From an uncultured Candidatus Saccharibacteria bacterium (lineage in GTDB: Bacteria; Patescibacteriota; Minisyncoccia; CAIUEV01; JAHKAQ01), in the NCBI GenBank assembly GCA_964598205.1, contig CAZRBB010000004.1, forward strand, positions 2,324 to 66,323: a stretch of 64,000 nucleotides of DNA. The letters are read 5' to 3'. The translations under genes and the position numbers were made by a program. The notes beneath the pieces are model-generated. The model saw nothing but the letters and a program-made list of their open reading frames with translations. It was not told the origin of the DNA and ran no database searches. Positions 1 through 11,304 of the stretch are shown one piece after another (positions within the stretch are counted from its first letter, which is position 1; every line of letters begins with the position of its first letter).

Positions 1-248
1 ATAGATATTTTAAAATTCATTTCATATTCACTTATAAGAAGATAAGTAATTAGAAAACCAGACAATACAAAAAATATTGAAACACCTGTTCCTCCATTAC
101 TCATAGTGTAGAGCAGTTTTTCCCAAATAGTATTTTTAATTGGAAGATATTGATATGATGGGCTAACAGCATGTCCAAGGAAAACCATTAACGCGGCTAT
201 GAATCTAATAGAATCTAAATTTTTAAAATATAATTTGTCGTTACTCAT
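1..248 (-). CDS. Acyltransferase family 3 (OafA-like) membrane protein, N-terminal fragment truncated by the window edge
   Basis: The minus strand read from the ATG at 246-248 gives MSNDKLYFKNLDSIRFIAALMVFLGHAVS...GVSIFFVLSGFLITYLL. This is the typical AT3 N-terminal TM1-TM2 signature. The ORF runs off the window start. Confidence 0.5.
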   Translation of the reverse strand, partial: MSNDKLYFKNLDSIRFIAALMVFLGHAVSPSYQYLPIKNTIWEKLLYTMSNGGTGVSIFFVLSGFLITYLLISEYEMNFKIS

Positions 249-658
249 AATTGTCTTGGTCGTGTTTTTTTGCTTACCACTTTTGTTTTAGTCGAAGCGT
301 TGTTTTTTCATTTTCTGTCTGTCGGTTTATGATTGCACTGCATTTTACAATGACCGCTAACGTTTCGGCATATCTGATGTTTTGTGGAGCGTAGCGGAAC
401 AAAATATGGGTGGAGGCTTTTGTAAAAAGCCGTAACCAGATATGCCGTGTTAGCTGATGTATTCCTTTTCTTTTTTCCGACAGCAGTCGGAATTGTTTTA
501 AAAAATTTTAAAATTTCTTTTTCCGTTTTGGATTTTGGGCAGAGGGGTCAGGGGTGAATGCCCAAAATCCAAAACACATTATTTCTTTTTCGTTTGAGAG
601 GGTGGCAAGAGGGGAACAAAAGGGGTGAATTGCCACTCTCTCAAACTCCTTATTGTAT

Positions 659-2023
659 TTAATTTGTAATCTTCATTTGTTGTTTTATTTCTCGTAAATA
701 TACAGTTGATTTTTGTTTTAATATATCCATATTGGTACTTGCAATATTTTCAAAATATTCAAAATCTTGTAATGCATCTCCCAAGTTGTTTCGTTTGAAA
801 TAACTCAAAAAACCAATCCAAAAATATAACTGTGCCTTAGGGGCTACATCGGTTAAAAGATTCAAATTAAATTTTCTTACTTCGTCTAAAGTTATTGCTT
901 CCGTTAAATAACGTTGTTGTTTTATTTTTTGACAAGTTTTCAATGCATTTTGATAATCTTCTTTCCAAAAATACAAAAATGCTTTGCTGTATCTCCACTC
1001 AAAAGTATTTTTTGCGTATTGCTCCGCTTTTTTTACACTTTTAATAGCCTCATCTATATTTTTATCAACCATAAAATCAATAATTGCTTTAAATAACCAC
1101 GCTCCATAATTATTATTATTTTCTGATAATGATTTTTCTAAAAATGTTTTTGCCTCGCTTATCCTGTTGTTTTCAAAATGCCATTTAGCTATCCACAGTG
1201 TCTCATCTGATATTAAAAGAGGAATACGATTTCGTATGTCTTGTAAATGAAGAGGCAGTGGTCGAAAAGCATTAAATTGGTCTTTTAAGCCATTGTGTAA
1301 TTTAAGAGCCAGTTGTGGATCTTGTGAGACGAAAGCGGCAATGCCGATGATGTATTTCGCGGCTAAATGTACTATCGTTGCAGAGGCTTCAAATCCTTTA
1401 AAACTTCTTTTTTCAAGAAAATTTACTTCTTTAGGCAATACTTTTGAAAAATCGATGGAAATTACTTGGCTTAAATTTTGAGGGATTGGTTTATGCACAA
1501 CATATCCTTGAAAATTTATAAAATACTTTTCGCCTTCATCACCGTCAGGTCTTTTTTTGACATCTCCCCAAACGTAGAAATGGGCTTTAATTTTTTTATT
1601 TATTATTTCTAATTTTGCTCGTGAATCGCTTGCCTCCTTAATTTGATTTGAAAAGTGGTTTTTAAGAAAAACGACTTCCGAAAAATTTAAAATGCCTTCC
1701 TGTTGTAAATCTTTTTTTAATTTGGAAATAAAATCTGCTTTCAATTTTTGTCTTTCCTTTTCGTTTTCTGAAAAAATAGCAATTACTATTCCGACTTTAT
1801 TTTTTCTGTTTCTGGGTAGGTGAAATTTATTAAATATCCAAAATCCTATCCATGATAAAAGCAATAACGAATAGATAGTTGCTCTTATTTTTAAGTCAGT
1901 AAATTGCCCCAAAAAACTATCTGCGAATACGAAAACACCAATTAAACCAATGACACCAACAAGAAGTGTTTTAACTTCTGGTAATTTTTCTTCGGTGATG
2001 TAATTAAACTTATCCCAATCCAT
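659..2023 (-). CDS. Membrane-anchored protein of unknown function: two N-terminal TM helices, a central alpha/beta domain and C-terminal TPR-like helical repeats
   Basis: 454-aa ORF with hydrophobic segments near the N-terminus. The C-terminal region (YGAWLFKAIIDF...EAIKSVKKAEQYAKNTFEWRYSKAFLYFWKEDYQNALKTCQKI) is TPR-like. It lies directly next to the R-M pair. Confidence 0.6.
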   Translation of the reverse strand: MDWDKFNYITEEKLPEVKTLLVGVIGLIGVFVFADSFLGQFTDLKIRATIYSLLLLSWIGFWIFNKFHLPRNRKNKVGIVIAIFSENEKERQKLKADFISKLKKDLQQEGILNFSEVVFLKNHFSNQIKEASDSRAKLEIINKKIKAHFYVWGDVKKRPDGDEGEKYFINFQGYVVHKPIPQNLSQVISIDFSKVLPKEVNFLEKRSFKGFEASATIVHLAAKYIIGIAAFVSQDPQLALKLHNGLKDQFNAFRPLPLHLQDIRNRIPLLISDETLWIAKWHFENNRISEAKTFLEKSLSENNNNYGAWLFKAIIDFMVDKNIDEAIKSVKKAEQYAKNTFEWRYSKAFLYFWKEDYQNALKTCQKIKQQRYLTEAITLDEVRKFNLNLLTDVAPKAQLYFWIGFLSYFKRNNLGDALQDFEYFENIASTNMDILKQKSTVYLREIKQQMKITN

Positions 2024-2058
2024 ATTTTATTACGTTTTTTGTCTTTTGTAAAAATTCT

Positions 2059-3075
2059 TTATTTTAAAGTTTTCAAGACTTTGAGCGTTAGGTCTTTTAC
2101 TGAATAAATGCCTTTCATTTTTTGTAAAAACTCTCTAGCACAATATATCTCATCGGCAACAAATATGTGTATGTTATGATTTAAAATACTCTTTGCTTTT
2201 TCTTCGTTTAGGTCTAGTCCTAGTGTTATTTCAATCATTACATCAATTTTGCTCATTTGAGCTGTCTTTATAAACTGTTTATACCTTTCTCTTAGTGTTC
2301 TTTTTGCACCAATTCCAAAAGTACGACCACCAAGCTCGAAAAAGAAGTCGAATTCCGTGCTAGAATCATCTTTGTCGTGAACTTTTTTAATATTTTTTTC
2401 TGGTATTCCTATTTTAGTTAAAACTGATAAAATTCTGTCTTCATAATCTGTCCCAGAATCAGAAATGATTGATTGATTAATGCTTTCCGAAAACATAAGC
2501 ATAAAAATTTGGTTTGGCTCAACCCCATTCTTTTTCAGCTTAATAGCAAATTTAGACAAATTATTAATAAAGCTATGAGCGTCAGATGACATAAAATTTG
2601 TTTTACCTGCCTCTAACTGCGAGAAAAACAATAAAGCCAATAATGCGCCGTTAACTCTGGTTGCGTAGGGTCTATATACTGAAATTTTATCGTAACTTAA
2701 TGACAGCGGATCAAGTCTGTCTAAATCGGAAACTCCGATAACATCAGTTAATTTAGCCTCTTGTAGTAGTAAATCTTTTATCAAGTATAATTTTAAGCTA
2801 AAAGCAAACAGGTCTAGGTCTACTTTGTTTTCAAGAGTTTCAATAATTGTAAATAAAATATTTTGCTTATCCTGTCCTACGATTTGCGATATCAAACCCT
2901 CGAACTTTTCATTGCAAGTTTCAATTTTTGAAGATTTGAATAAAACATATGTCTCCAAAAACTGCAGAGCCTGTTTTTCTGAAAGTTTTGATTTCACTAA
3001 ATGTTTTAATAAAAAGTAAAATTTTAAATTTATATCAAATTTACCTTTCGTAATTTGTAGTTTGTTGATTTTCAT
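2059..3075 (-). CDS. Putative type II restriction endonuclease, partner of the adjacent C5 methyltransferase
   Basis: 338-aa ORF lying 12 bp upstream of the MTase on the same strand. It has no recognisable housekeeping family, and its AT-rich composition matches the MTase. Assignment rests on gene context only. Confidence 0.4.
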   Translation of the reverse strand: MKINKLQITKGKFDINLKFYFLLKHLVKSKLSEKQALQFLETYVLFKSSKIETCNEKFEGLISQIVGQDKQNILFTIIETLENKVDLDLFAFSLKLYLIKDLLLQEAKLTDVIGVSDLDRLDPLSLSYDKISVYRPYATRVNGALLALLFFSQLEAGKTNFMSSDAHSFINNLSKFAIKLKKNGVEPNQIFMLMFSESINQSIISDSGTDYEDRILSVLTKIGIPEKNIKKVHDKDDSSTEFDFFFELGGRTFGIGAKRTLRERYKQFIKTAQMSKIDVMIEITLGLDLNEEKAKSILNHNIHIFVADEIYCAREFLQKMKGIYSVKDLTLKVLKTLK

Positions 3076-3086
3076 AGATTTTTTTA

Positions 3087-4064
3087 TTAAGTAATTGCTT
3101 TTTTAATAGCTTGTGCAAGTGCTGTGATAACGGGTACAGCAACACTATTTCCAAATTGTTTATATGCTTGAGTGTCGCTCACGGGTATTTTAAAATTTTC
3201 TGGATAACCTTGAAGTCTTGCTGCTTCTCTCGGCGTCACTTTTCGAGGATTTTTATTTTTTTGTTCTATTAAAATTTCAGAGCCATCTTTGTAGTATCTA
3301 GCTGATATTGTACTTGTGTATTCAGAATCTTCAGTAAACATGGAATAACCAAATCCGTTGCCTTTCTCTTTATGTTCTTTTTTTCTTCTTTGGTGACCAG
3401 CCCATAATTTGTCAGAAAGAGTATATTTCTTGTCTACCTTTTTTTCTAAAATATTACCCAACTTTGTTTTTACTCCTATAGCTTCTGGAAATTTAAAGTC
3501 CACCTCATCTAAAAAACCAATAATATATATTCTCTCTCTATTTTGTGGGACACCAAAATCTTTTGCATTTAAAATTTTTGTAAAAATTTTATACCCCATA
3601 TCCTCTAAAGTTTTCTTTATTACTTCAAAGGTGTTCCCTTTGTCATGGTTTTTAAATCCTTTTACATTTTCCAAAAAAACTACCCTTGGCTTATGATGTT
3701 TAATAATTCTGGCTATGTCAAAAAAAAGTGTTCCCCTTGAATCTTCAAAACCTTTTTTTAGTCCGGCATTTGAAAATGGCTGGCATGGAAAACCTGCACA
3801 CAAAATATCAAATTTTGGTATATTTTTTTCTTTGACTTTTATTATGTCACCTTCAAAAAGATTCTCACCTTTTGAAAACAATCCTTCTTCAAAAATACTT
3901 GGCGATAAATCTTTGTAGTTTTCTATGTAAGTTTTTCTTGCTTGTTCATCCCATTCAGATGCAAAAACACAATCACAACCGACACTGTGAAATGCTGTAT
4001 GAAAACCGCCTATGCCAGCGAATAAATCTATAAATGTTAGTTGTGGTTTTTTTGGATTGGACAT
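3087..4064 (-). CDS. DNA (cytosine-5)-methyltransferase, HhaI-like
   Basis: Motif I FIDLFAGIGGF, motif IV ILCAGFPCQPFSNAG, GFEDSRGTLFFDIARI, VVFLENVKGF, and QNRERIYIIGF. The 325-aa length is close to M.HhaI-type enzymes. Confidence 0.92.
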   Translation of the reverse strand: MSNPKKPQLTFIDLFAGIGGFHTAFHSVGCDCVFASEWDEQARKTYIENYKDLSPSIFEEGLFSKGENLFEGDIIKVKEKNIPKFDILCAGFPCQPFSNAGLKKGFEDSRGTLFFDIARIIKHHKPRVVFLENVKGFKNHDKGNTFEVIKKTLEDMGYKIFTKILNAKDFGVPQNRERIYIIGFLDEVDFKFPEAIGVKTKLGNILEKKVDKKYTLSDKLWAGHQRRKKEHKEKGNGFGYSMFTEDSEYTSTISARYYKDGSEILIEQKNKNPRKVTPREAARLQGYPENFKIPVSDTQAYKQFGNSVAVPVITALAQAIKKAIT

Positions 4065-4360
4065 ATATCAAATTAAGTCAAAATTATTATATTCGTTTTC
4101 CCCTTATAAATAAATCGTTTTCGTAGCGGAGCGGAGAAAACACCTTATTACCCCTCTTTAATTAATGAAAAAGAAATTTTAAAATTTTTTAAAATAATTG
4201 GGCGATAGCCCAAAAAAGAAAAGGAATATTTCAGCTAACTCGTTGTTATGCGAACTTACTGGCGGATAATGGGTGGGGATTGTATGTTAGGCGAATTAAT
4301 TTATTTTTTATTGGGGTTCTTTTTAGAATGATTTTATTGGTGCTAGTGTAGCATATTTTT

Positions 4361-5179
4361 ATGAATCTGGACGATCTTTTGGGGAGAATTAGAAGAGAAT
4401 TAAAGTTGCGGAATTATAGCTCCAAAACGATCAAAAGTTATTTGGGTTGTTTGGTTGATTATTTTCGGTACCTTAAAAATATTAAAAGAGAACCAAATAT
4501 TGAGTTGATAAAAGATTATTTGTCCAAAAAGCAAGAAAGGGGACAGTCTTCGCAAACGATCAATCTCTATTTGAATGCTATTAAGTATTTTTATAGAGAA
4601 GTTTTTAAAAGTAGAACAAGTATTGATCTTAAATTTGCCAAGAGATCAAAGAAATTGCCGGTGGTTTTATCTAGAAAAGAAATTAAAAAAATAATCGAAT
4701 CAATTAAAAATAAAAAGCATAGATTATTAATTGCTCTTTCTTATAGTGGGGGACTAAGGGTGAGTGAAGTAACGAATTTAAAAATAGGAGATCTAGATTT
4801 GGAAGAACTAACAATTCATATTAAGAATGGAAAAGGAAAAAAAGATAGAATGACTATTTTTTCTGAAAGAATAAAAATTGATTTGGAGAAAATAAGTAAT
4901 AGAAGAATAGGGAATGCTTTGGTTTTTGAAAGTAACAGGGGTGGAAAATTAACCGAAAGATCGGTTCAAAAAGTTTTTAAAAAGGCGATCAAAAAAGCGG
5001 AAATAAAAAAGGAGGCAACTTTCCATTCGCTTCGGCATAGTTTTGCCACTCATCTTTTAGAAGACGGGGTGGATATTCGGTTCGTTCAAGAATTATTGGG
5101 GCACGCCAATATTCGGACTACTCAAATTTATACTCAGGTAAACAGCTCAAGGTTGAAAAAAATAAAAAGCCCTTTGTAG
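4361..5179 (+). CDS. Site-specific tyrosine recombinase (XerC/XerD / integrase family)
   Basis: C-terminal catalytic box HSLRHSFATHLLEDGVDIRFVQELLGHANIRTTQIYTQV (R..HxxR..Y). N-terminal SAM-like core-binding domain. Confidence 0.85.
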   Translation: MNLDDLLGRIRRELKLRNYSSKTIKSYLGCLVDYFRYLKNIKREPNIELIKDYLSKKQERGQSSQTINLYLNAIKYFYREVFKSRTSIDLKFAKRSKKLPVVLSRKEIKKIIESIKNKKHRLLIALSYSGGLRVSEVTNLKIGDLDLEELTIHIKNGKGKKDRMTIFSERIKIDLEKISNRRIGNALVFESNRGGKLTERSVQKVFKKAIKKAEIKKEATFHSLRHSFATHLLEDGVDIRFVQELLGHANIRTTQIYTQVNSSRLKKIKSPL

Positions 5180-5277
5180 GCTTGGGTTTTGGGAAATGGA
5201 TTGGCGATTTTTATTTTAGGTCTTTTAATAGTCTGTTTGTAAGAGTTTGGTTTTTATTTTTTTTGGTTATTTGTTTT

Positions 5278-5964
5278 TTATTGGATTATTGACCAGCCAC
5301 CGCTTGTTAGTGCTGGAAACATTTTGTATTTACCTATTTCTTTTTGAATGTGCCAGTGCCCGCAAATAACGCTATCTACTTCTGGTCCATCTTCAACTTC
5401 TTTTAAGCGCTTCATTTGTTCTGGTACTTCTTCTGTGTTTTTAACGAATGGGGGATGATGCTGAAGTATTAAAACTCTTTTATCTGTTTTAATAACATTT
5501 TTTAACCATTCCAATTGGGTTTCCGAAACTCCTCCATTGTATCCTGCTTGTTCGTTAGTATCTAAAACAATAATTCTGTCGTTTCCAGTATCTTCGTAAT
5601 AGTATCCGCTTTGTTCTATTCCGTGATTTCCTTTTAACCAAAATACTTTTAGTTTTGATTTGGTGGCTATTTTTTTTAATTCCTTGTTTCTTTTGCTGTC
5701 TTTTTTGTCCGTGCTGTCTCCAAGAATAAAAACTACTTCTTCTCCTCTTGTTTTTAATTCTTTTAAGGCAGCCTTAAAAGAATTAGCTCCATTTTTAGGA
5801 TAAATAGTAGGAAAACCAGTGCATTTTTTAGTATTTGCTTTTCCGTAATGAATATCGGCAATTACCCCATAAGCCAGAGTGGTTTGGGGAATTAGTAAGA
5901 GGAATAGAAATACAGCGTATTTTATTTTATTCAAAAGATATTCAATTTGATTCGGCCGGATCAT
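5278..5964 (-). CDS. Calcineurin-like metallophosphoesterase with N-terminal signal/TM segment
   Basis: Motifs DIHYG, GDSTD, GNHG, QHHPP and GHWH. The six-frame ORF extends to 6126 only by reading through the antisense tRNA-Asp. The true start is the internal ATG (MIRPNQ) at 5964. Confidence 0.75.
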   Translation of the reverse strand: MIRPNQIEYLLNKIKYAVFLFLLLIPQTTLAYGVIADIHYGKANTKKCTGFPTIYPKNGANSFKAALKELKTRGEEVVFILGDSTDKKDSKRNKELKKIATKSKLKVFWLKGNHGIEQSGYYYEDTGNDRIIVLDTNEQAGYNGGVSETQLEWLKNVIKTDKRVLILQHHPPFVKNTEEVPEQMKRLKEVEDGPEVDSVICGHWHIQKEIGKYKMFPALTSGGWSIIQ

Positions 5965-5998
5965 GATTATTGTTTGGCTATAAATGGAGATTTTTCTC

Positions 5999-6075
5999 TG
6001 GCGGGGACGACGGGGCTCGAACCCGCGACCTTCTGCGTGACAGGCAGACGCTCTAACCAACTGAGCTACGTCCCC
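5999..6075 (-). tRNA. tRNA-Asp (GTC), CCA encoded
   Basis: Minus-strand sequence GGGGACGTAGCTCAGTTGGTTAGAGCGTCTGCCTGTCACGCAGAAGGTCGCGGGTTCGAGCCCCGTCGTCCCCGCCA. It folds as a cloverleaf with anticodon loop CTGTCAC. Confidence 0.9.
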
Positions 6076-6330: not shown

Positions 6331-6897
6331 ATGAATAGGAAATATTTTAAAGTTTGGGTTTTGGGATTGGTTTTTATTTTTTTAATTCCTTCTTTTGCTT
6401 TGGCGGCTACGACTTGTCCGTACGGATTAACTAATGATTCGTATCCTGGAGAATGCGGAAGGTATGTTGATCAAGATAAAAACGGGGTTTGCGATTTAAG
6501 CCAAGTTGCAGTAAATACTTCTAACAACCAGCCAGAAACAAAAAACGAAAACGAAGTCTTGATACCAGAAAAAAGAAAAATAAAAGCAATCTATAATTTC
6601 TTACCGCTTTCTTTAGTTCTTTTGATTGCTTACGGAATAACTTATTTATTGGCTGGGAAGAAAATAATAAGCTTGGTTTGGCATCGTCGGATTTGGAATT
6701 TGGTTTTGCTTTTTTCTTTTTTGGCTTCGGGATTGTTGGGAATTTTTTTGGTGTTGAAAATAAATTACGGTTTTAATTGGAATTGGCCACTTAACATACT
6801 TTATTGGCATGTGGAAACAGGAATCTCAATGGTGGTTGTTTCTATTTTTCATATTAGTTGGCACTTAAAATATTATGCTTGTGGTTTTTCTTTTTAA
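6331..6897 (+). CDS. Membrane protein with signal peptide, small Cys-rich ectodomain and about 4 TM helices; function unknown
   Basis: Signal peptide MNRKYFKVWVLGLVFIFLIPSFALA. Ectodomain CPYG...CGRYVDQDKNGVCD. Hydrophobic helices follow. Confidence 0.5.
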   Translation: MNRKYFKVWVLGLVFIFLIPSFALAATTCPYGLTNDSYPGECGRYVDQDKNGVCDLSQVAVNTSNNQPETKNENEVLIPEKRKIKAIYNFLPLSLVLLIAYGITYLLAGKKIISLVWHRRIWNLVLLFSFLASGLLGIFLVLKINYGFNWNWPLNILYWHVETGISMVVVSIFHISWHLKYYACGFSF

Positions 6898-7003
6898 TTT
6901 TTAAGAAGCGTTGGCGTTTGATTTTGACGCTATTTTTTTAGAAGGAAAAAAGCTAGAATGGGGTTAGGAAAGATAAAAAATAAATAATCATTAAAAAATA
7001 ATT

Positions 7004-8883: not shown

Positions 8884-11304
8884 TTAACCACGAAAAATTA
8901 TTTTATTTTTCTTAACAGAAGCCCTGAGGGAGAGAGCGGTGGAGGGATTTTTTTTGATAATGATTTCTGCTAAGGGATTTTCTAAATATTTCTCTGTGTT
9001 TTTTCTTAGAAGGCGAGCACCTTCTTTTTTGTCTAAACTTTTTTCTGCTAAAAATTGGAAAACTTCTGGTTTGATTTTTAACTTTATTTTATTCTTGTTT
9101 AATCTTTGAATAATTTTCTTAATCTCTTTTTGAGCGATTTTTTTAAGATCTTTCTTGGTTAGGGCGTTAAAAACAATAATGTGATCAATTCTGTTTAAAA
9201 GTTCTGGCAAAAATTCTTCTTTAAAATTGGCCAAGGCTGTCTTTTTTTGGGAAGAATCATCTTTTGATTCAGTGCCTTCTTTTCCAAATCCAAGCAAATT
9301 TTTGGTAAAATCTCTGGCTCCCAAATTAGAAGTCATAACGATTAGGGTGTTTTTAAAGTTAACGGCCCGACCGGAAGAATCCGTTAGGAGTCCGTCTTCT
9401 AACACTTGCAAAAGAATGTTAAAAACTTCTGGATGAGCTTTTTCTATTTCATCAAAGAGAATTAAGCTGTAAGGGTTGCGGCGAATCTTGTCTGTTAGCT
9501 TGTTTTCGTCTTCGTAGCCAACATAGCCGGCGGGAGCGCCGATTAGCCTAGAAACATTGTGCTGCTGGGCGAATTCACTCATGTCTATTCGCAAAAAACT
9601 GGCGGGATTTTTGAATAAAATTTGGGCAATGCTTTTGGCTAAATAGGTTTTACCAACTCCGGTTGGCCCTAAGAAAACAAAAGATCCTAAGGGGCGACTA
9701 GGGTCGCCAATGCCACTATAGGATTTTTGGATGGTTTTAATAACGGCTTTTAAGGCCTGATCTTGACCAATAATTCTTTCTTGAAGTTTCTTTTTTAAGA
9801 GGACTATTTCTTGGGGTTTTTTTACTCCGATTTCGGTTAAGGGAATACCGGTTCGTTCGGCGACTATTTCTTGAATATCTTTTTCGGTAACCCGGAGAAA
9901 GGTTAAATCTTCTCTTCTTTTTTGTTCTTTTTTAATGACTCTTAAAATATTTTCTAATTCTTCTTCATCTTTTTTTAATTCTACGGCCAGCGCTAACTTG
10001 TTATCAAAAACCAATCTCTTTTTTAGTTTTTTGATTTTTCTTTTTTGTTCTAAGCATTTTTTTATTTTTTTGGTGGTGTCAAAAGAAATGGCATTAGCTC
10101 TGGCTCTGGCCTGGGCTTCGTCGATTAAGTCGATTGCTTTGTCTGGAAGAAAGCGGTCGTTTAGGTAGCGTTCGCTGAGAGTTGCCGCCGCTTCTAGGGC
10201 TTTTTCGTCTAGGTTAACGCGATGGAATTGTTCGTAACTTTTTTTAATACCTGAAAGAATTTTTTTTACTTCTATCCCTTGGGGTTCTTTAACATTGACT
10301 GGCTGGAAGCGTCTTTCTAGGGCGGCGTCTTTTTCTATGTAACGGCGGTATTCGTCGAATGTAGTGGCGCCAATCAATTTTAATTTTCCTTTGGCCAAGG
10401 CTGGCTTTAACATATTGGCTGCATCTAAGCTTCCTTGAGCGCTACCGGCTCCTATTAGGTTATGAATTTCGTCTATAAATAAAATAATATCTTTGTTGGA
10501 TGAGGCGTATTGAACAACTTCTTTCATTCTTTGTTCAAATTCTCCGCGGAAAGTGGTACCAGAAAGGAGTAGGCCTAAGTCTAATTCGTAAATTTGTTTT
10601 TCGCTCATTGCTCCAGGAACTTCTCCTTTATTGATTCTCTGGGCTAAGGCGGCAACAACGGCCGTTTTACCTACGCCTGGCTCGCCAATAAGCACCGGAT
10701 TATTTTTGCTTCTTCTTAGTAAAATATTGATTAAGCGGTCTGCTTCTTTTTCCCGACCAATAATTGGATGAGTATTTTCTTCTTGATTTTCTAGGTTTAA
10801 ATTAACAGCAAATTTTTCTAAGGGATTGTTTTTAAGTGATCTTTTATTTTTAGAAGTGATGCCAAGGTGCATAGAATGAAGGAAGTCTGGCAAGCGGCCA
10901 AAACCTTCTGGGTTAGAAAGGGGGCGAAAAGAATTATTTAAAATATTTTTAGAAAAAAATTCTTCTACTTCTGGCTCTTTTGATTTGATTACGGCATGAA
11001 CTAAATGTTCGGTGCCGATGTAGGGGTAATGATATTGGGCAGCGATTTTAACTGCAGTGGCTAAAATAGTTTTTAGAGCGAAAGAGAAGGGAAGGTCTTT
11101 GGTTGCGTTAGAATCTTGGTCAAAATCAATTAAAGGTTCCTTCTTAATACCTAGTTCTCTTAGAATATTTTCTCCGACACTGCCTTTTTCGGCGGCGATG
11201 CCCAAAATTAAATGTTTAACTAGAATTTCTTTTGATATTTCTTGAGTGGCAAAATAACGCGCTCGGTCCAGTGACCGTTTGGCGTGCTTGGTGAACTTGT
11301 TCAT
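8884..11304 (-). CDS. clpC: ATP-dependent Clp protease ATP-binding subunit ClpC (two AAA+ modules plus Clp_N)
   Basis: Clp_N repeats. Walker A motifs GEPGVGKTA and GPTGVGKTY. The start is set at the ATG (MNKFTKHAKRSLDRAR) that matches Clp N-termini. The six-frame ORF begins 42 nt further upstream at 11346. Confidence 0.9.
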   Translation of the reverse strand: MNKFTKHAKRSLDRARYFATQEISKEILVKHLILGIAAEKGSVGENILRELGIKKEPLIDFDQDSNATKDLPFSFALKTILATAVKIAAQYHYPYIGTEHLVHAVIKSKEPEVEEFFSKNILNNSFRPLSNPEGFGRLPDFLHSMHLGITSKNKRSLKNNPLEKFAVNLNLENQEENTHPIIGREKEADRLINILLRRSKNNPVLIGEPGVGKTAVVAALAQRINKGEVPGAMSEKQIYELDLGLLLSGTTFRGEFEQRMKEVVQYASSNKDIILFIDEIHNLIGAGSAQGSLDAANMLKPALAKGKLKLIGATTFDEYRRYIEKDAALERRFQPVNVKEPQGIEVKKILSGIKKSYEQFHRVNLDEKALEAAATLSERYLNDRFLPDKAIDLIDEAQARARANAISFDTTKKIKKCLEQKRKIKKLKKRLVFDNKLALAVELKKDEEELENILRVIKKEQKRREDLTFLRVTEKDIQEIVAERTGIPLTEIGVKKPQEIVLLKKKLQERIIGQDQALKAVIKTIQKSYSGIGDPSRPLGSFVFLGPTGVGKTYLAKSIAQILFKNPASFLRIDMSEFAQQHNVSRLIGAPAGYVGYEDENKLTDKIRRNPYSLILFDEIEKAHPEVFNILLQVLEDGLLTDSSGRAVNFKNTLIVMTSNLGARDFTKNLLGFGKEGTESKDDSSQKKTALANFKEEFLPELLNRIDHIIVFNALTKKDLKKIAQKEIKKIIQRLNKNKIKLKIKPEVFQFLAEKSLDKKEGARLLRKNTEKYLENPLAEIIIKKNPSTALSLRASVKKNKIIFRG

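What the first reader, a model, noticed from the sequence alone, without database searches (positions are those of the whole stretch)
452..6075. Restriction-modification islet with an unknown membrane/TPR gene, next to a tyrosine recombinase and tRNA-Asp
Four neighbouring genes are present here: the unknown 454-aa membrane/TPR protein (659-2023), a 338-aa putative endonuclease (2059-3075), an HhaI-like C5 methyltransferase (3087-4064) and a tyrosine recombinase (4361-5179). A metallophosphoesterase gene follows, then tRNA-Asp (5999-6075). The three minus-strand genes (unknown, REase, MTase) are visibly more AT-rich than neighbouring housekeeping genes such as groEL or clpC. A short imperfect inverted repeat (GTTAGCTGA.TATTCC near 455-471, its complement near 4222-4240) brackets the three-gene cassette. 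This arrangement is typical of laterally acquired defence islets. I could not find a duplicated tRNA 3' end (att site), so element boundaries are unproven. The recombinase may also simply be the chromosomal Xer.
Basis: partly seen in the sequence, partly recalled or inferred. Interest (0 to 1): 0.55.

Follow-up and report, generated by a model that had tools for sequence, protein, structure and literature searches.

The report
Xer-site-bounded restriction-modification defence cassette
A restriction-modification operon plus an unknown membrane protein sits in a standard 'cassette frame' flanked by recombinase sites next to a recombinase gene, and the same frame carries other anti-virus genes in many ultra-small (CPR) bacteria, which suggests an integron-like way of swapping immune genes.

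Summary
The inverted repeat is much larger than described: about 78 nt per arm (446-523 and 4167-4242). It is one instance of a widespread cassette frame.

The three genes are:
- a Dcm-type (not HhaI-type) C5 methyltransferase;
- a CCGG-family (EcoRII-C-like) endonuclease;
- 'fam454', a Patescibacteria-only 2TM/TPR protein. In 9 other genomes it lies between hsdS and hsdR of type I R-M operons.

The cassette is bounded by a 'P' arm and a 'T' arm.
- The P arm's outer end is the right half of a dif-like Xer site (4228-4254), 107 nt upstream of the XerA/IntI-like recombinase gene.
- Outside the T arm lies an ~87-nt three-way-junction element with strong covariation.

More than 120 metagenome contigs carry the same arms. 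In them I found:
- 35 complete cassettes of 0.6-9.2 kb;
- cargo rich in defence genes;
- tandem arrays of up to 8 junctions;
- the recombinase at the promoter-proximal end only.

Homology between contigs breaks exactly at the GTTA arm ends.

Best reading: a Xer-dependent, dif-module/integron-like defence cassette array. tRNA-Asp plays no part. Recombination itself is inferred, not shown.

The parts
355..460 (+). Junction element, a structured three-way junction. The module proper is about 362-448. Stem P0 pairs 359-362 with 448-451, and stem P1 pairs 366-376 with 437-447. There are two internal hairpins (P2, P3).
   Evidence: Covariance-model hit of 117 bits, E=3.5e-25, the only one in the window. 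P1 shows compensatory changes in 7 of 14 pairs. 95% of cells are paired, against 85% in shuffles (0/500) and 35-45% when partners are slid. No Rfam family matches.
431..460 (+). T-side recombination-site candidate: left arm CGTAACCAGATA (431-442), spacer TGCCGTG (443-449), right arm TTAGCTGATGT (450-460, the T head).
   Evidence: Across 61 junctions the left arm and head are conserved and the spacer varies in classes (GCCGTG x20, TCGTTG x12, ACGCTG x11). Homology breakpoints between contigs fall at this head.
449..523 (+). T arm, the cassette's distal inverted-repeat arm: block 1 (449-476), hairpin CCGACAGCAGTCGG (477-490), block 2 (491-523).
   Evidence: There are 76 T arms in metagenome loci, always preceded by the junction. 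The hairpin scores as an inward-facing terminator.
526..645 (.). Two long hairpins (526-575 and 596-645) between the T arm and the stop codon of the 454-aa gene. The first is conserved next to T arms in other loci (GGGCAGAGGGG motif).
   Evidence: Read directly from the sequence. The conserved extension of T arms is seen and in L019.
659..2023 (-). fam454: a 454-aa protein with 2 TM helices, a novel alpha/beta central domain and a TPR C-terminal domain. It is a companion gene of R-M systems.
   Evidence: 122 homologues were found; every homologue that carries a source name is from Patescibacteria. The AF2 model has pLDDT 88.8. Only the TPR region finds fold matches. The gene is embedded in R-M operons in at least 16 of 30 loci. 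No PADLOC hit.
2059..3075 (-). Type II restriction endonuclease, CCGG-family / EcoRII-C-like (D...K258-x3-R262-E263-R264...E282).
   Evidence: 942 homologues at 60-83% identity across phyla, one named a type II REase. 23 of 26 family members hit Pfam EcoRII-C. It always follows a C5 MTase. The motif is described in PMC6344858.
3087..4064 (-). C5 cytosine DNA methyltransferase with a Dcm/EcoRII-type target-recognition domain.
   Evidence: Pfam DNA_methylase 2.6e-104. PDB matches: M.HhaI 2.6e-73 and Dcm-type 3lx6 5.6e-72. The TRD alone matches only 3me5/3lx6, at 1.5e-16.
4083..4110 (-). Promoter-like site for the cassette operon, inside the cassette between the P arm and the MTase start.
   Evidence: Consensus scan, TTTATA-16-AATAAT, 9 of 12 matches. 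This is a weak, consensus-only match.
4167..4239 (-). P arm, the cassette's proximal inverted-repeat arm: block 2 (4167-4199), hairpin GGGCTATCGCCC as read on the minus strand (4200-4211), block 1 with the head GTTAGCTGAAAT (4212-4239).
   Evidence: There are 84 P arms in metagenome loci. The hairpin scores as an inward-facing terminator. Homology breakpoints fall at the first base of the head.
4228..4254 (-). dif-like Xer core site TTCGCATAA-CAACGAG-TTAGCTGAAAT. The left arm is XerC-arm-like, the spacer is 7 nt, and the right arm is XerD-arm-like and is the P head.
   Evidence: One match in the window against 0.00 expected. The arms match 9/11 and 8/11 to the pdif arms printed in PMC13141974. 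The same site lies 62-113 nt upstream of Xer in six other loci.
4285..4295 (-). Second, direct copy of the XerC-arm-like motif (TTCGCCTAACA), about 45 nt outside the core site. It may be an accessory binding site.
   Evidence: Paired motif copies are seen in the Xer-P spacers of L001, L067, L126, L019 and L102. This was judged by eye and not tested statistically.
4361..5179 (+). Tyrosine recombinase of the XerA / integron-integrase-like branch, transcribed divergently from the cassette.
   Evidence: NCBIfam XerA_Arch/integron integrase scores 235.8 bits, above the 220 cut-off. PDB: XerA 5e-43; VchIntIA 1.4e-42 in two pieces, lacking the IntI insertion. It is the only tyrosine recombinase in the window. 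Homologues sit divergently at the P-proximal end of arrays in 16 of 17 loci.

Best explanation
Window 359-4254 is one module of a chromosomal array of exchangeable defence cassettes in a Patescibacteria (CPR) genome. The array grammar resembles Acinetobacter dif modules and, in layout, integrons.

**Cargo.**
- A CCGG-family type II R-M pair: a Dcm-type C5 methyltransferase and an EcoRII-C-like endonuclease. The target is probably CCWGG or CCNGG (inferred).
- fam454, a membrane-anchored TPR protein that travels with many different R-M systems.

**Frame.** The cargo sits between two ~75-nt inverted arms (P and T).
- Their outer ends (GTTAnnTGA...) are XerD-arm-like half-sites.
- With a XerC-arm-like element outside the P arm, they form a dif-like core site 107 nt from the gene of a XerA/IntI-like tyrosine recombinase.
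- On the T side, the partner half-site lies in an ~87-nt structured junction module.

**Inferred mechanism.**
- The recombinase exchanges strands in the 6-7-nt spacer just outside the GTTA heads.
- Cassettes, with or without their junction, are thereby inserted, excised or swapped between sites with matching spacers.
- The junction may work as a folded single strand, like integron attC or the CTX phage attP(+).
- The inward-facing terminator hairpins in both arms, plus an internal promoter, insulate each cassette transcriptionally.

**Shown:** the anatomy, the conservation, the covariation, the array structure, the cargo, and the sharp homology boundaries.

**Inferred:** that the adjacent recombinase catalyses the exchange, the strand and form of the substrate, the R-M specificity, and any function of fam454. 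My guess for fam454 is a sensor or effector that backs up R-M, by analogy with PrrC. That guess has low confidence.
For: **Arms.**
- Arms of ~78 nt bracket the three genes and occur only twice in 64 kb.
- The same arms occur in at least 120 metagenome contigs: 84 P arms, 76 T arms, 35 complete cassettes of 0.6-9.2 kb. Every pair is one P plus one T with heads outward, and 80 of 83 large ORFs run P to T.

**Cargo.** It is rich in defence genes: DNA MTases, ResIII, Eco57I, Mrr, MTES_1575, AAA_21/AAA_15 (AriA-like), nSTAND3, PLD, MADS.

**Junction.** A three-way junction with covariation. A covariance model finds arrays of up to 8 junctions, all on one strand.

**Recombinase position.** A divergent recombinase lies outside 7 of 43 P arms and 0 of 37 T arms. 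It is at the P-proximal end in 16 of 17 loci.

**dif-like site.**
- One copy in the window against 0 expected.
- It recurs 62-113 nt from Xer genes elsewhere.
- It resembles published pdif sites.
- The T side has the same arm-spacer-arm layout, with spacer classes.

**Breakpoints.** Homology of 90-95% over about 400-1000 nt of cargo (87% and 91% over 1.7-2.5 kb in two further pairs) ends within 0-2 nt of the GTTA head in 7 contig pairs. One cassette lies next to Xer in one contig and behind a junction in another.

**L019.** It has the same Xer, frame and junction but a different R-M.

**Conservation.** Arm DNA is more than 90% conserved where the Xer proteins are only 41-67% identical.
Against: - No recombination event was observed. 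No contig pair shows presence versus absence of a cassette between identical flanks.
- Sharp homology ends show where the conserved unit stops, not necessarily where strands are exchanged.
- Arms of 75-100 nt could also cause chimeric joins in metagenome assemblies.
- Only 7 of 43 P arms have a recombinase gene next to them. Elsewhere the site abuts housekeeping genes, so the enzyme would have to act in trans.
- The T-side left arm is only weakly dif-like (4/11), and internal P-side sites have a 9-10-nt spacing, unusual for tyrosine recombinases.
- The sites flanking a cassette are inverted, which predicts inversion. Inverted cassettes were not seen.
- The promoter call is consensus-only.
Confidence: 0.62

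Rival explanations
1. The arms and junction are purely transcriptional or RNA-level devices (insulating terminators, 3'-UTR or antisense RNA structure) that come with horizontally transferred defence operons. In this reading cassettes move by other means, for example homologous recombination through the conserved arms after natural transformation. The Xer gene would be only a frequent neighbour.
For: - Both arm hairpins score as inward-facing intrinsic terminators.
- G-T wobble pairs favour one strand of the junction.
- Most P arms (36 of 43) have no recombinase gene nearby.
- Sharp homology ends at the arm termini are expected for any conserved handle.
Against: - The outer arm ends, together with their flanks, form a dif-like arm-spacer-arm site that resembles published Xer sites.
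- The recombinase gene, when present, is always at the P end and never at the T end.
- No conserved promoter precedes the junction on its folding strand (read from the sequences).
- The junction's variable positions behave like spacer classes.
Confidence: 0.15
2. An ordinary stand-alone R-M islet acquired once by horizontal transfer. In this reading the inverted repeat and the neighbouring Xer gene have no functional connection with it.
For: - The MTase-REase pair occurs as a two-gene module in unrelated genomes.
- The cassette has lower GC.
Against: - The arms recur around 35 other cassettes with other cargo.
- L019 has the same Xer, arms and junction with a different R-M.
- fam454 is linked to R-M systems in at least 16 of 30 loci.
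Confidence: 0.06
3. A phase-variable invertible segment. In this reading the tyrosine recombinase flips the 3.7-kb cassette between the inverted sites to switch the R-M system on and off.
For: - The flanking sites are inverted and lie next to a tyrosine recombinase.
- Inversions between inversely oriented Xer sites are documented for dif modules.
Against: - All 4 same-organism contigs that hold both the Xer gene and the cassette have the same orientation.
- The recombinase lies next to the P arm and never the T arm (7 vs 0).
- 80 of 83 cargo ORFs are co-oriented in arrays.
- The promoter-like site lies inside the segment, so inversion would not disconnect it.
Confidence: 0.07
4. A bona fide integron: an IntI integrase, attI, and attC-bounded promoterless cassettes.
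For: - A divergent recombinase followed by a co-oriented cassette array.
- The recombinase matches VchIntIA as strongly as XerA.
- Hairpin junctions based on AAC...GTT pairing.
- The folding strand is antisense to the cargo, as for attC bottom strands.
Against: - The IntI-specific insertion is absent, and the TIGR02249 score is below its cut-off.
- The junctions have strongly conserved sequence, unlike attC.
- The cassettes are multi-gene, up to 9-12 kb, with their own promoter-like sites and terminators.
- The boundary sites look like dif sites.
Confidence: 0.05

Closest known systems
Acinetobacter dif modules (pdif / XerC-XerD modules; PMC13141974)
   Same: - Discrete gene modules are bounded by inversely oriented dif-like sites (arm, ~6-nt spacer, arm).
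- Two module types alternate: here, cassettes with XerD-like arms internal and junctions with XerC-like arms internal.
- Spacer classes exist.
- The cargo is accessory or defence-type genes.
- Site sequences are similar: TTCGCATAA...TTAGCTGAAAT here, against ATTTCGTATAA...TTATGTTAAAT.
   Different: - The arrays are chromosomal and in Patescibacteria, not on Rep_3 plasmids.
- There is a single XerA/IntI-like recombinase, often encoded next to the array.
- The 'C modules' are reduced to an ~87-nt structured three-way junction.
- The cassettes carry an extra ~60 nt of conserved arm with terminator hairpins.
- The P-site spacer is 7 nt, and internal P-side spacings are 9-10 nt.
- Xer dependence is untested.
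Integrons (IntI, attI, attC cassettes), including chromosomal integrons that store anti-phage systems (10.1101/2024.07.02.601686)
   Same: - A divergently transcribed tyrosine recombinase sits at one end of a co-oriented cassette array.
- A distinct site lies next to the integrase gene, with repeated arm-like motifs.
- Cassette junctions are imperfect hairpins with AAC/GTT at their base.
- Homology boundaries fall at GTT.
- The cargo is defence genes.
   Different: - The recombinase lacks the IntI-specific domain.
- The junctions are conserved in sequence.
- The cassettes are large and multi-gene, with their own promoter-like sites and terminators.
- Each cassette has long inverted arms.
rAID-1 recombinase-associated gene arrays of Bacteroidales (10.1101/471110)
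   Same: - A XerD-family recombinase lies at the 5' end.
- The downstream genes are co-oriented and low in GC.
- The intergenic sequences are repetitive, which the authors call reminiscent of integrons.
- The cargo is protective.
   Different: - The cargo there is interbacterial immunity genes.
- By the authors' search criterion, the downstream genes there are co-directionally oriented with one another; whether the recombinase itself shares their orientation was not checked. Here the recombinase is divergent.
- No dif-like arm grammar or three-way junction is described in the passages I read.
EcoRII/PspGI/SsoII-Ecl18kI type II R-M systems (CCGG family) with Dcm-type methyltransferases (PMC6344858, PMC2577326)
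   Same: - The methyltransferase TRD is of Dcm type.
- The endonuclease family matches Pfam EcoRII-C and carries K-x3-R-E-R plus downstream E, as in the permuted PD...K...E site with the R-(D/E)R recognition motif.
   Different: - The 338-aa enzyme has a ~190-aa N-terminal region with no detectable relative (no EcoRII-N).
- The recognition sequence is untested, and site-avoidance statistics are not decisive.
PrrC anticodon nuclease in the EcoprrI type I R-M locus (PMC2610378)
   Same: Like prrC, fam454 is an extra gene embedded in type I R-M operons, between hsdS and hsdR in 9 loci. The placement of prrC between hsdS and hsdR is from my own knowledge. The paper describes PrrC as silenced by a linked type I R-M enzyme and activated by a phage anti-restriction factor.
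   Different: - There is no sequence or fold similarity: fam454 has 2 TM helices, a novel alpha/beta domain and TPRs, with no ABC ATPase or nuclease domain.
- fam454 also accompanies type II and type ISP/IIG-like systems.
- Its function is unknown.

Membership tests
Type II R-M, CCGG family (EcoRII-C-like REase + Dcm-type C5 MTase) | C5 MTase catalytic motifs together with a Dcm/EcoRII-type target-recognition domain | tested here: met
   Pfam DNA_methylase 2.6e-104. The TRD alone matches only 3me5/3lx6, at 1.5e-16.
Type II R-M, CCGG family (EcoRII-C-like REase + Dcm-type C5 MTase) | Endonuclease with the EcoRII-C fold/family and the K...R-(D/E)R...E motifs | tested here: inconclusive
   The window protein itself hits Pfam EcoRII-C only at E=0.025. 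23 of 26 close homologues hit it, best 3e-6. K258, R262-E263-R264 and E282 are invariant in the family alignment. A profile search of PDB sequences found nothing.
Type II R-M, CCGG family (EcoRII-C-like REase + Dcm-type C5 MTase) | Recognition and cleavage of CCGG/CCNGG/CCWGG | not testable with these tools
   Site-avoidance ratios are CCWGG 0.84, CCNGG 0.73 and CCGG 0.74, which is not decisive.
M.HhaI-type (GCGC) methyltransferase | Target-recognition domain homologous to that of M.HhaI | tested here: not met
   The TRD query finds no M.HhaI chain at E<=1, only Dcm-type chains.
Integron | IntI integrase with the IntI-specific additional domain | tested here: not met
   The alignment to VchIntIA (2a3v) splits: query 9-175 aligns to 8-177 and query 196-271 aligns to 241-316, so about 40 residues of IntI are missing. 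TIGR02249 scores 205.5, below its 265 cut-off.
Integron | Co-oriented cassette array adjacent to a divergently transcribed integrase | tested here: met
   L055 reads Xer< followed by five cassettes, each ended by a junction. 16 of 17 loci are divergent at the P-proximal end.
Integron | attC sites: structure-conserved, sequence-variable hairpins of 57-141 nt with R''/L''-L'/R' boxes | tested here: inconclusive
   The junction is an 85-130-nt hairpin based on AAC/GTT pairing with an unpaired TTT. However, its sequence is highly conserved, and no attC model was available to run.
dif modules (Xer-site-bounded modules) | Module flanked by inversely oriented dif-like sites (arm, ~6-nt spacer, arm) | tested here: met
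   The P site is at 4228-4254 (9/11 and 8/11 matches to pdif arms, 7-nt spacer). The T site is at 431-460 with a conserved arm, a variable spacer and the head. The T-side left arm matches only weakly (4/11).
dif modules (Xer-site-bounded modules) | Alternation of two module types, with C-type or D-type arms internal | tested here: met
   Cassettes (heads internal) alternate with junction modules (left arms internal) in arrays.
dif modules (Xer-site-bounded modules) | Carried on Acinetobacter Rep_3 plasmids and dependent on host XerC + XerD | tested here: not met
   The context is chromosomal and CPR, with housekeeping neighbours. A single XerA-like recombinase is present. Dependence on Xer is not testable here.
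tRNA-integrated genomic island | Direct repeat of the tRNA 3' end marking the far boundary | tested here: not met
   No second copy of the last 12-45 nt of tRNA-Asp exists in the window.
IMEX inserted at the chromosomal dif (terminus) | Site located at the replication terminus, where GC skew goes from + to - | tested here: not met
   The skew goes from - to + at ~4.1 kb and stays positive for 60 kb.
Invertible (phase-variable) DNA segment | Both orientations present in populations or relatives | tested here: not met
   All 4 same-organism contigs that hold both the Xer gene and the cassette have the same orientation. Xer lies next to the P arm in 7 of 43 cases and next to the T arm in 0 of 37. 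Read-level data were not examined.
PrrC/RloC anticodon nucleases | ABC-ATPase domain plus a C-terminal ACNase domain | tested here: not met
   No Pfam, NCBIfam or PADLOC hits other than TPR. The central domain has no fold match. Only the embedding in type I R-M operons is shared.

The most novel reading that the evidence does not exclude
Patescibacteria possess a previously undescribed gene-capture platform. It consists of chromosomal arrays of insulated defence cassettes, bounded by dif-like half-sites and separated by a conserved three-way-junction module. The junction would fold as single-stranded DNA (like integron attC or the CTX phage attP(+)) to serve as the substrate of a XerA/IntI-like recombinase. 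Such a system would be a living intermediate between Xer/dif dimer resolution and integrons. It would also carry a new R-M-guarding membrane protein family (fam454).
Probability: 0.4. Interest if true: 0.85.

Novelty: new variant of a known kind. Interest (0 to 1): 0.72.

Why it matters
CPR/Patescibacteria make up a large share of bacterial diversity. They have tiny genomes, few CRISPR systems, and almost no characterised mobile-element biology.

- **A possible explanation for their immune turnover.** A standardised, recombinase-served cassette frame that shuttles R-M, Abi-like and NTPase defence systems would explain how these episymbionts renew their immune repertoire.
- **A discovery handle.** Anything lying between a P arm and a T arm is a candidate defence system, fam454 included.
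- **An evolutionary link.** The frame combines a dif-like site grammar, an IntI-like but insertion-less recombinase, and hairpin junctions. This bears on how integrons arose from Xer systems.
- **Practical use.** The arms, with their terminators, internal promoter and recombination sites, could also serve as parts for the new CPR genetics.

Tried and rejected
- **tRNA-Asp as integration site.** No 3'-end repeat exists.
- **Recombinase beside the chromosomal terminus dif.** The GC skew has the wrong sign change.
- **HhaI (GCGC) specificity.** The TRD is Dcm-type.
- **Inferring specificity from site avoidance.** The ratios of 0.55-0.95 are not decisive.
- **PDB sequence and profile searches for the endonuclease.** Only spurious LRR hits came back.
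- **Fold searches for fam454.** The full-length model finds only TPR proteins. The central domain alone has a best E of 3e-3 and TM about 0.4, which is not meaningful. A profile search against PDB found nothing.
- **Rfam for the junction.** No family matches.
- **Syntenic relatives lacking the cassette.** None of the fetched loci shares the window's flanks.
- **Insertion/deletion polymorphisms between collinear contigs.** One irrelevant case was found.
- **Same-cargo pairs with long flanks.** There were too few.
- **Reading the junction as a hammerhead-like ribozyme or a tRNA-like element.** The motifs do not fit, and neither ARAGORN nor Rfam reports it.
- **Interpreting the internal P-side flank as a canonical dif arm.** The spacing and polarity do not fit (reasoned from the sequences).
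- **Literature searches for a description of this system in CPR.** Nothing was found.

Full report
**1. Observation.**

- The cassette genes have the 1st, 2nd and 5th lowest GC of 58 genes in the window. The recombinase gene is 3rd.
- The low GC (0.28-0.33) continues at least 6 kb to the left of the window, through about ten more genes co-oriented with the cassette.
- The 'short imperfect inverted repeat' is in fact two blocks per arm: 446-476/4212-4242 (31 nt, 90%) and 491-523/4167-4199 (33 nt, 97%). A different small hairpin sits between the blocks in each arm.
- Each block occurs exactly twice in the 64 kb, against 0.01 or fewer expected.

**2. The R-M pair.**

The methyltransferase core matches M.HhaI (2.6e-73) and the Dcm-type enzyme 3lx6 (5.6e-72) equally well. 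Its target-recognition domain on its own finds only the Dcm-type chains, at 1.5e-16.

The 338-aa protein has 942 homologues.
- Many are full-length at 60-83% identity.
- They come from Moranbacteria, Zetaproteobacteria, Campylobacterales and archaea.
- One is named a type II restriction endonuclease.

Further support:
- 23 of 26 homologues hit Pfam EcoRII-C.
- The invariant K258, R262-E263-R264 and E282 fit the permuted PD...K...E site and the R-(D/E)R recognition motif of the CCGG family (PMC6344858).
- In other genomes the same MTase-then-REase pair sits in unrelated contexts, without the 454-aa gene or a recombinase.

This is therefore a mobile CCGG-family type II system, probably targeting CCWGG or CCNGG. 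That specificity is inferred, and site avoidance is not decisive.

**3. The 454-aa protein (fam454).**

There are 122 homologues, all about 455 aa. Every homologue that carries a source name is from Patescibacteria.

A confident model (pLDDT 88.8) shows three parts:
- two N-terminal TM helices;
- a conserved alpha/beta domain (residues ~75-205, with invariant N122-H123, H148, H177);
- a TPR domain.

Only the TPR part finds structural relatives. The central domain modelled alone (pLDDT 83.8) has no meaningful match. PADLOC has no model for the family.

Its genomic context is striking:
- In 9 loci it lies between hsdS and hsdR of type I R-M operons.
- In others it follows hsdR-hsdM-hsdS or a type ISP/IIG-like system plus DUF4145.
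- In L019 it precedes a different C5 MTase/REase/Vsr set.

At least 16 of 30 loci are R-M-embedded. Being embedded in a type I R-M operon recalls PrrC, which is silenced by its linked type I enzyme and triggered by a phage anti-restriction factor (PMC2610378). The analogy is positional only.

**4. The arms are a widespread cassette frame.**

L019 (fam454 74% identical) shares three things with the window: the recombinase gene (67% aa identity), fam454, and a 230-nt non-coding block (window 357-584). It also has the same two-block inverted repeat, around a different cargo.

A scan for block 1 found at least 120 metagenome contigs. There are two arm types:
- 'P' arms (GTTAnnTGAAATAT...);
- 'T' arms (GTTAnnTGATGTAT...).

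The 35 complete cassettes span 0.6-9.2 kb.
- Each is one P plus one T, with heads outward.
- 80 of 83 large ORFs run P to T.

Their cargo is dominated by defence genes.

Both arm hairpins look like inward-facing terminators. A promoter-like site lies inside the P arm. The arms therefore plausibly insulate each cassette.

**5. The junction.**

Outside every T arm lies a ~100-nt element. It has a covarying long-range stem P1, the AACG/TGTT base P0, and two internal hairpins of variable length. Its single-stranded motifs (ATGTT, ATATGGGTGGAG, CGTAAC) are conserved.

Structural support:
- RNAalifold finds compensatory changes in 7 of 14 pairs.
- For my hand-drawn three-way junction, 95% of cells pair, against 85% in shuffles (0/500) and 35-45% when slid. 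The covariation score is 0.283 against 0.120 (0/500).
- Wobble pairs favour the strand antisense to the cargo.
- Rfam has no such family.

A covariance model gives these hits:
- one copy in the window (355-460);
- a second, weaker copy ~2 kb further left on the source contig;
- arrays elsewhere: 8 junctions in 10.8 kb in L159; 6 in L109; 5 each in L162 and L055;
- 4 or more in the Magasanikbacteria locus L039, where junctions bracket a whole type I R-M plus fam454 operon.

All junctions within an array lie on one strand.

**6. The recombinase and its site.**

The 272-aa protein passes the NCBIfam XerA/integron-integrase model.
- It matches XerA structures end to end.
- It matches VchIntIA just as strongly, but without the IntI-specific insertion.

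Homologues lie divergently at the P-proximal end of arrays in 16 of 17 loci. They are found outside 7 of 43 P arms and 0 of 37 T arms.

Comparison with published pdif sites (ATTTCGTATAA-6 nt-TTATGTTAAAT; PMC13141974) shows the following:
- The sequence just outside the P arm plus the P head forms a dif-like core site, TTCGCATAA-CAACGAG-TTAGCTGAAAT (4228-4254).
- It lies 107 nt from the recombinase start codon.
- It is unique in the window, with 0.00 expected.

The same site lies 62-113 nt from Xer genes in six other loci. L126 matches the pdif arms at 10/11 and 10/11. Where no Xer gene is adjacent, the site abuts housekeeping genes.

The T side has the same layout: a conserved left arm, a variable ~7-nt spacer that falls into classes, and the head. 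The variable, covarying part of P1 is therefore largely the spacer.

Cassettes (XerD-like arms internal) thus alternate with junction modules (XerC-like arms internal). This is the grammar of dif modules.

**7. Evidence for modularity.**

Among the fetched contigs, 8 of 41 internal ends of high-identity homology blocks fall at an arm head in both partners. Seven of these are within 0-2 nt of the first G of GTTA.
- Identity is 93-100% inside for most pairs and at random level (11-27%; one pair 49%) outside.
- The homology continues for 400-2500 nt into the cargo.
- One cassette lies next to Xer in L161 and behind another cassette's junction in L125.
- The same T-side cargo is joined to different junction variants (L052/L132).
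- Arm DNA is more than 90% identical between genomes whose Xer proteins are only 41-67% identical.

**8. Rivals tested.**
- **tRNA island:** no att repeat.
- **Terminus dif/IMEX:** the GC skew changes from - to + here and stays positive for 60 kb, the opposite of a terminus.
- **Inversion switch:** orientation is constant in all same-organism contigs and across loci.
- **True integron:** the IntI domain is missing, the junction sequence is conserved, and the cassettes are large and self-promoted.
- **Purely RNA-level or homology-handle explanation:** this remains possible, and I give it 0.15.

**9. Limits.**
- No recombination event was observed.
- No presence/absence polymorphism was found.
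- Metagenome assemblies can be chimeric at repeats.
- The T-side left arm is only weakly dif-like.
- Internal P-side spacings are atypical.
- The promoter call is consensus-only.
- The R-M specificity and the function of fam454 are inferred.
- The organism's lineage is inferred from the names of homologues.

**10. Verdict.**

The finding is real. It is more than an R-M islet: it is one cassette of an apparently undescribed Xer-associated, dif-module/integron-like defence cassette system of Patescibacteria. I found no description of it in the searchable literature. The closest analogues are Acinetobacter dif modules, integrons that store defence systems, and rAID-1 arrays of Bacteroidales.

Noticed in passing
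window 4113-4138 (+) and window 379-405 (+): A hairpin GTTTTC-GTAGCGGAGCGGA-GAAAAC lies between the P arm and the MTase start. Its loop motif (GTAGCGrAGCGGA) is the same as in stem P2 of the junction, and it is on the same strand. The motif recurs in P2 loops of many junctions and may be a protein-binding element.
   Followed up: no
L001 15668-15814 (about window -1600 to -1750, outside the window); window 1-248: A second, weaker junction (37.8 bits) follows the Acyl_transf_3 gene and two small ORFs. The partial gene at the left edge of the window therefore probably belongs to the next module of the array. About ten co-oriented low-GC accessory genes (Fic, GrpB, GNAT, nitroreductase and others) follow.
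   Followed up: partly
L130 around 6830-6945: A T arm is fused back to back with a P arm, with no cargo between them. This is an 'empty cassette', next to a Xer gene.
   Followed up: no
L019 7682-7760; L098 2229-2255; flanks of junctions in L050, L051, L073, L074: A third head family (TTGTGCAAAAT / TTGTCCAAAAT) forms head-loop-head hairpins with a GAGCGAAGCGGAG-type loop. It also pairs with a TTCGTATAA arm at 7-nt spacing. The site grammar is therefore broader than the two arm families analysed.
   Followed up: no
L026, L027, L029, L031, L042, L043 (gene after hsdR): A conserved protein of about 189 aa ('p189') follows hsdR in the type I operons that contain fam454. A DUF4145 protein precedes fam454 in L013/L018. 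YgjP-like and Mrr/NA-iREase genes are other immediate neighbours.
   Followed up: no
window ~4100 and the whole window: The GC skew changes sign (- to +) at about 4.1 kb and is positive for the remaining 60 kb. Genes also diverge from this point. This could be a local effect of the co-oriented array or an origin-like switch. It was not resolved because only 7 kb to the left is available.
   Followed up: partly
window 355-460 vs L001 13605-13711: The window and the JGI 198-kb contig differ by a 1-nt indel in the P3 loop of the junction (TGTAAAAA vs TGTATAAAA). The window therefore comes from a slightly different assembly or strain.
   Followed up: no
L104 5515-8394: The gyrB gene next to a cassette site carries an intein (Pfam Intein_splicing).
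   Followed up: no
L019, L020, L022, L029, L033, L036, L038 (record titles): MAGs labelled 'uncultured Gammaproteobacteria' carry fam454 and CPR-type arrays. All named protein homologues are from Patescibacteria, so these taxonomic labels are probably wrong.
   Followed up: no
L166 (IMG/VR UViG 3300001336_000172) 10689-10809: One contig classified as viral ends in a junction plus T arm. It is either a misclassified cellular array or a hint that such cassettes also travel on phage or plasmid DNA.
   Followed up: no
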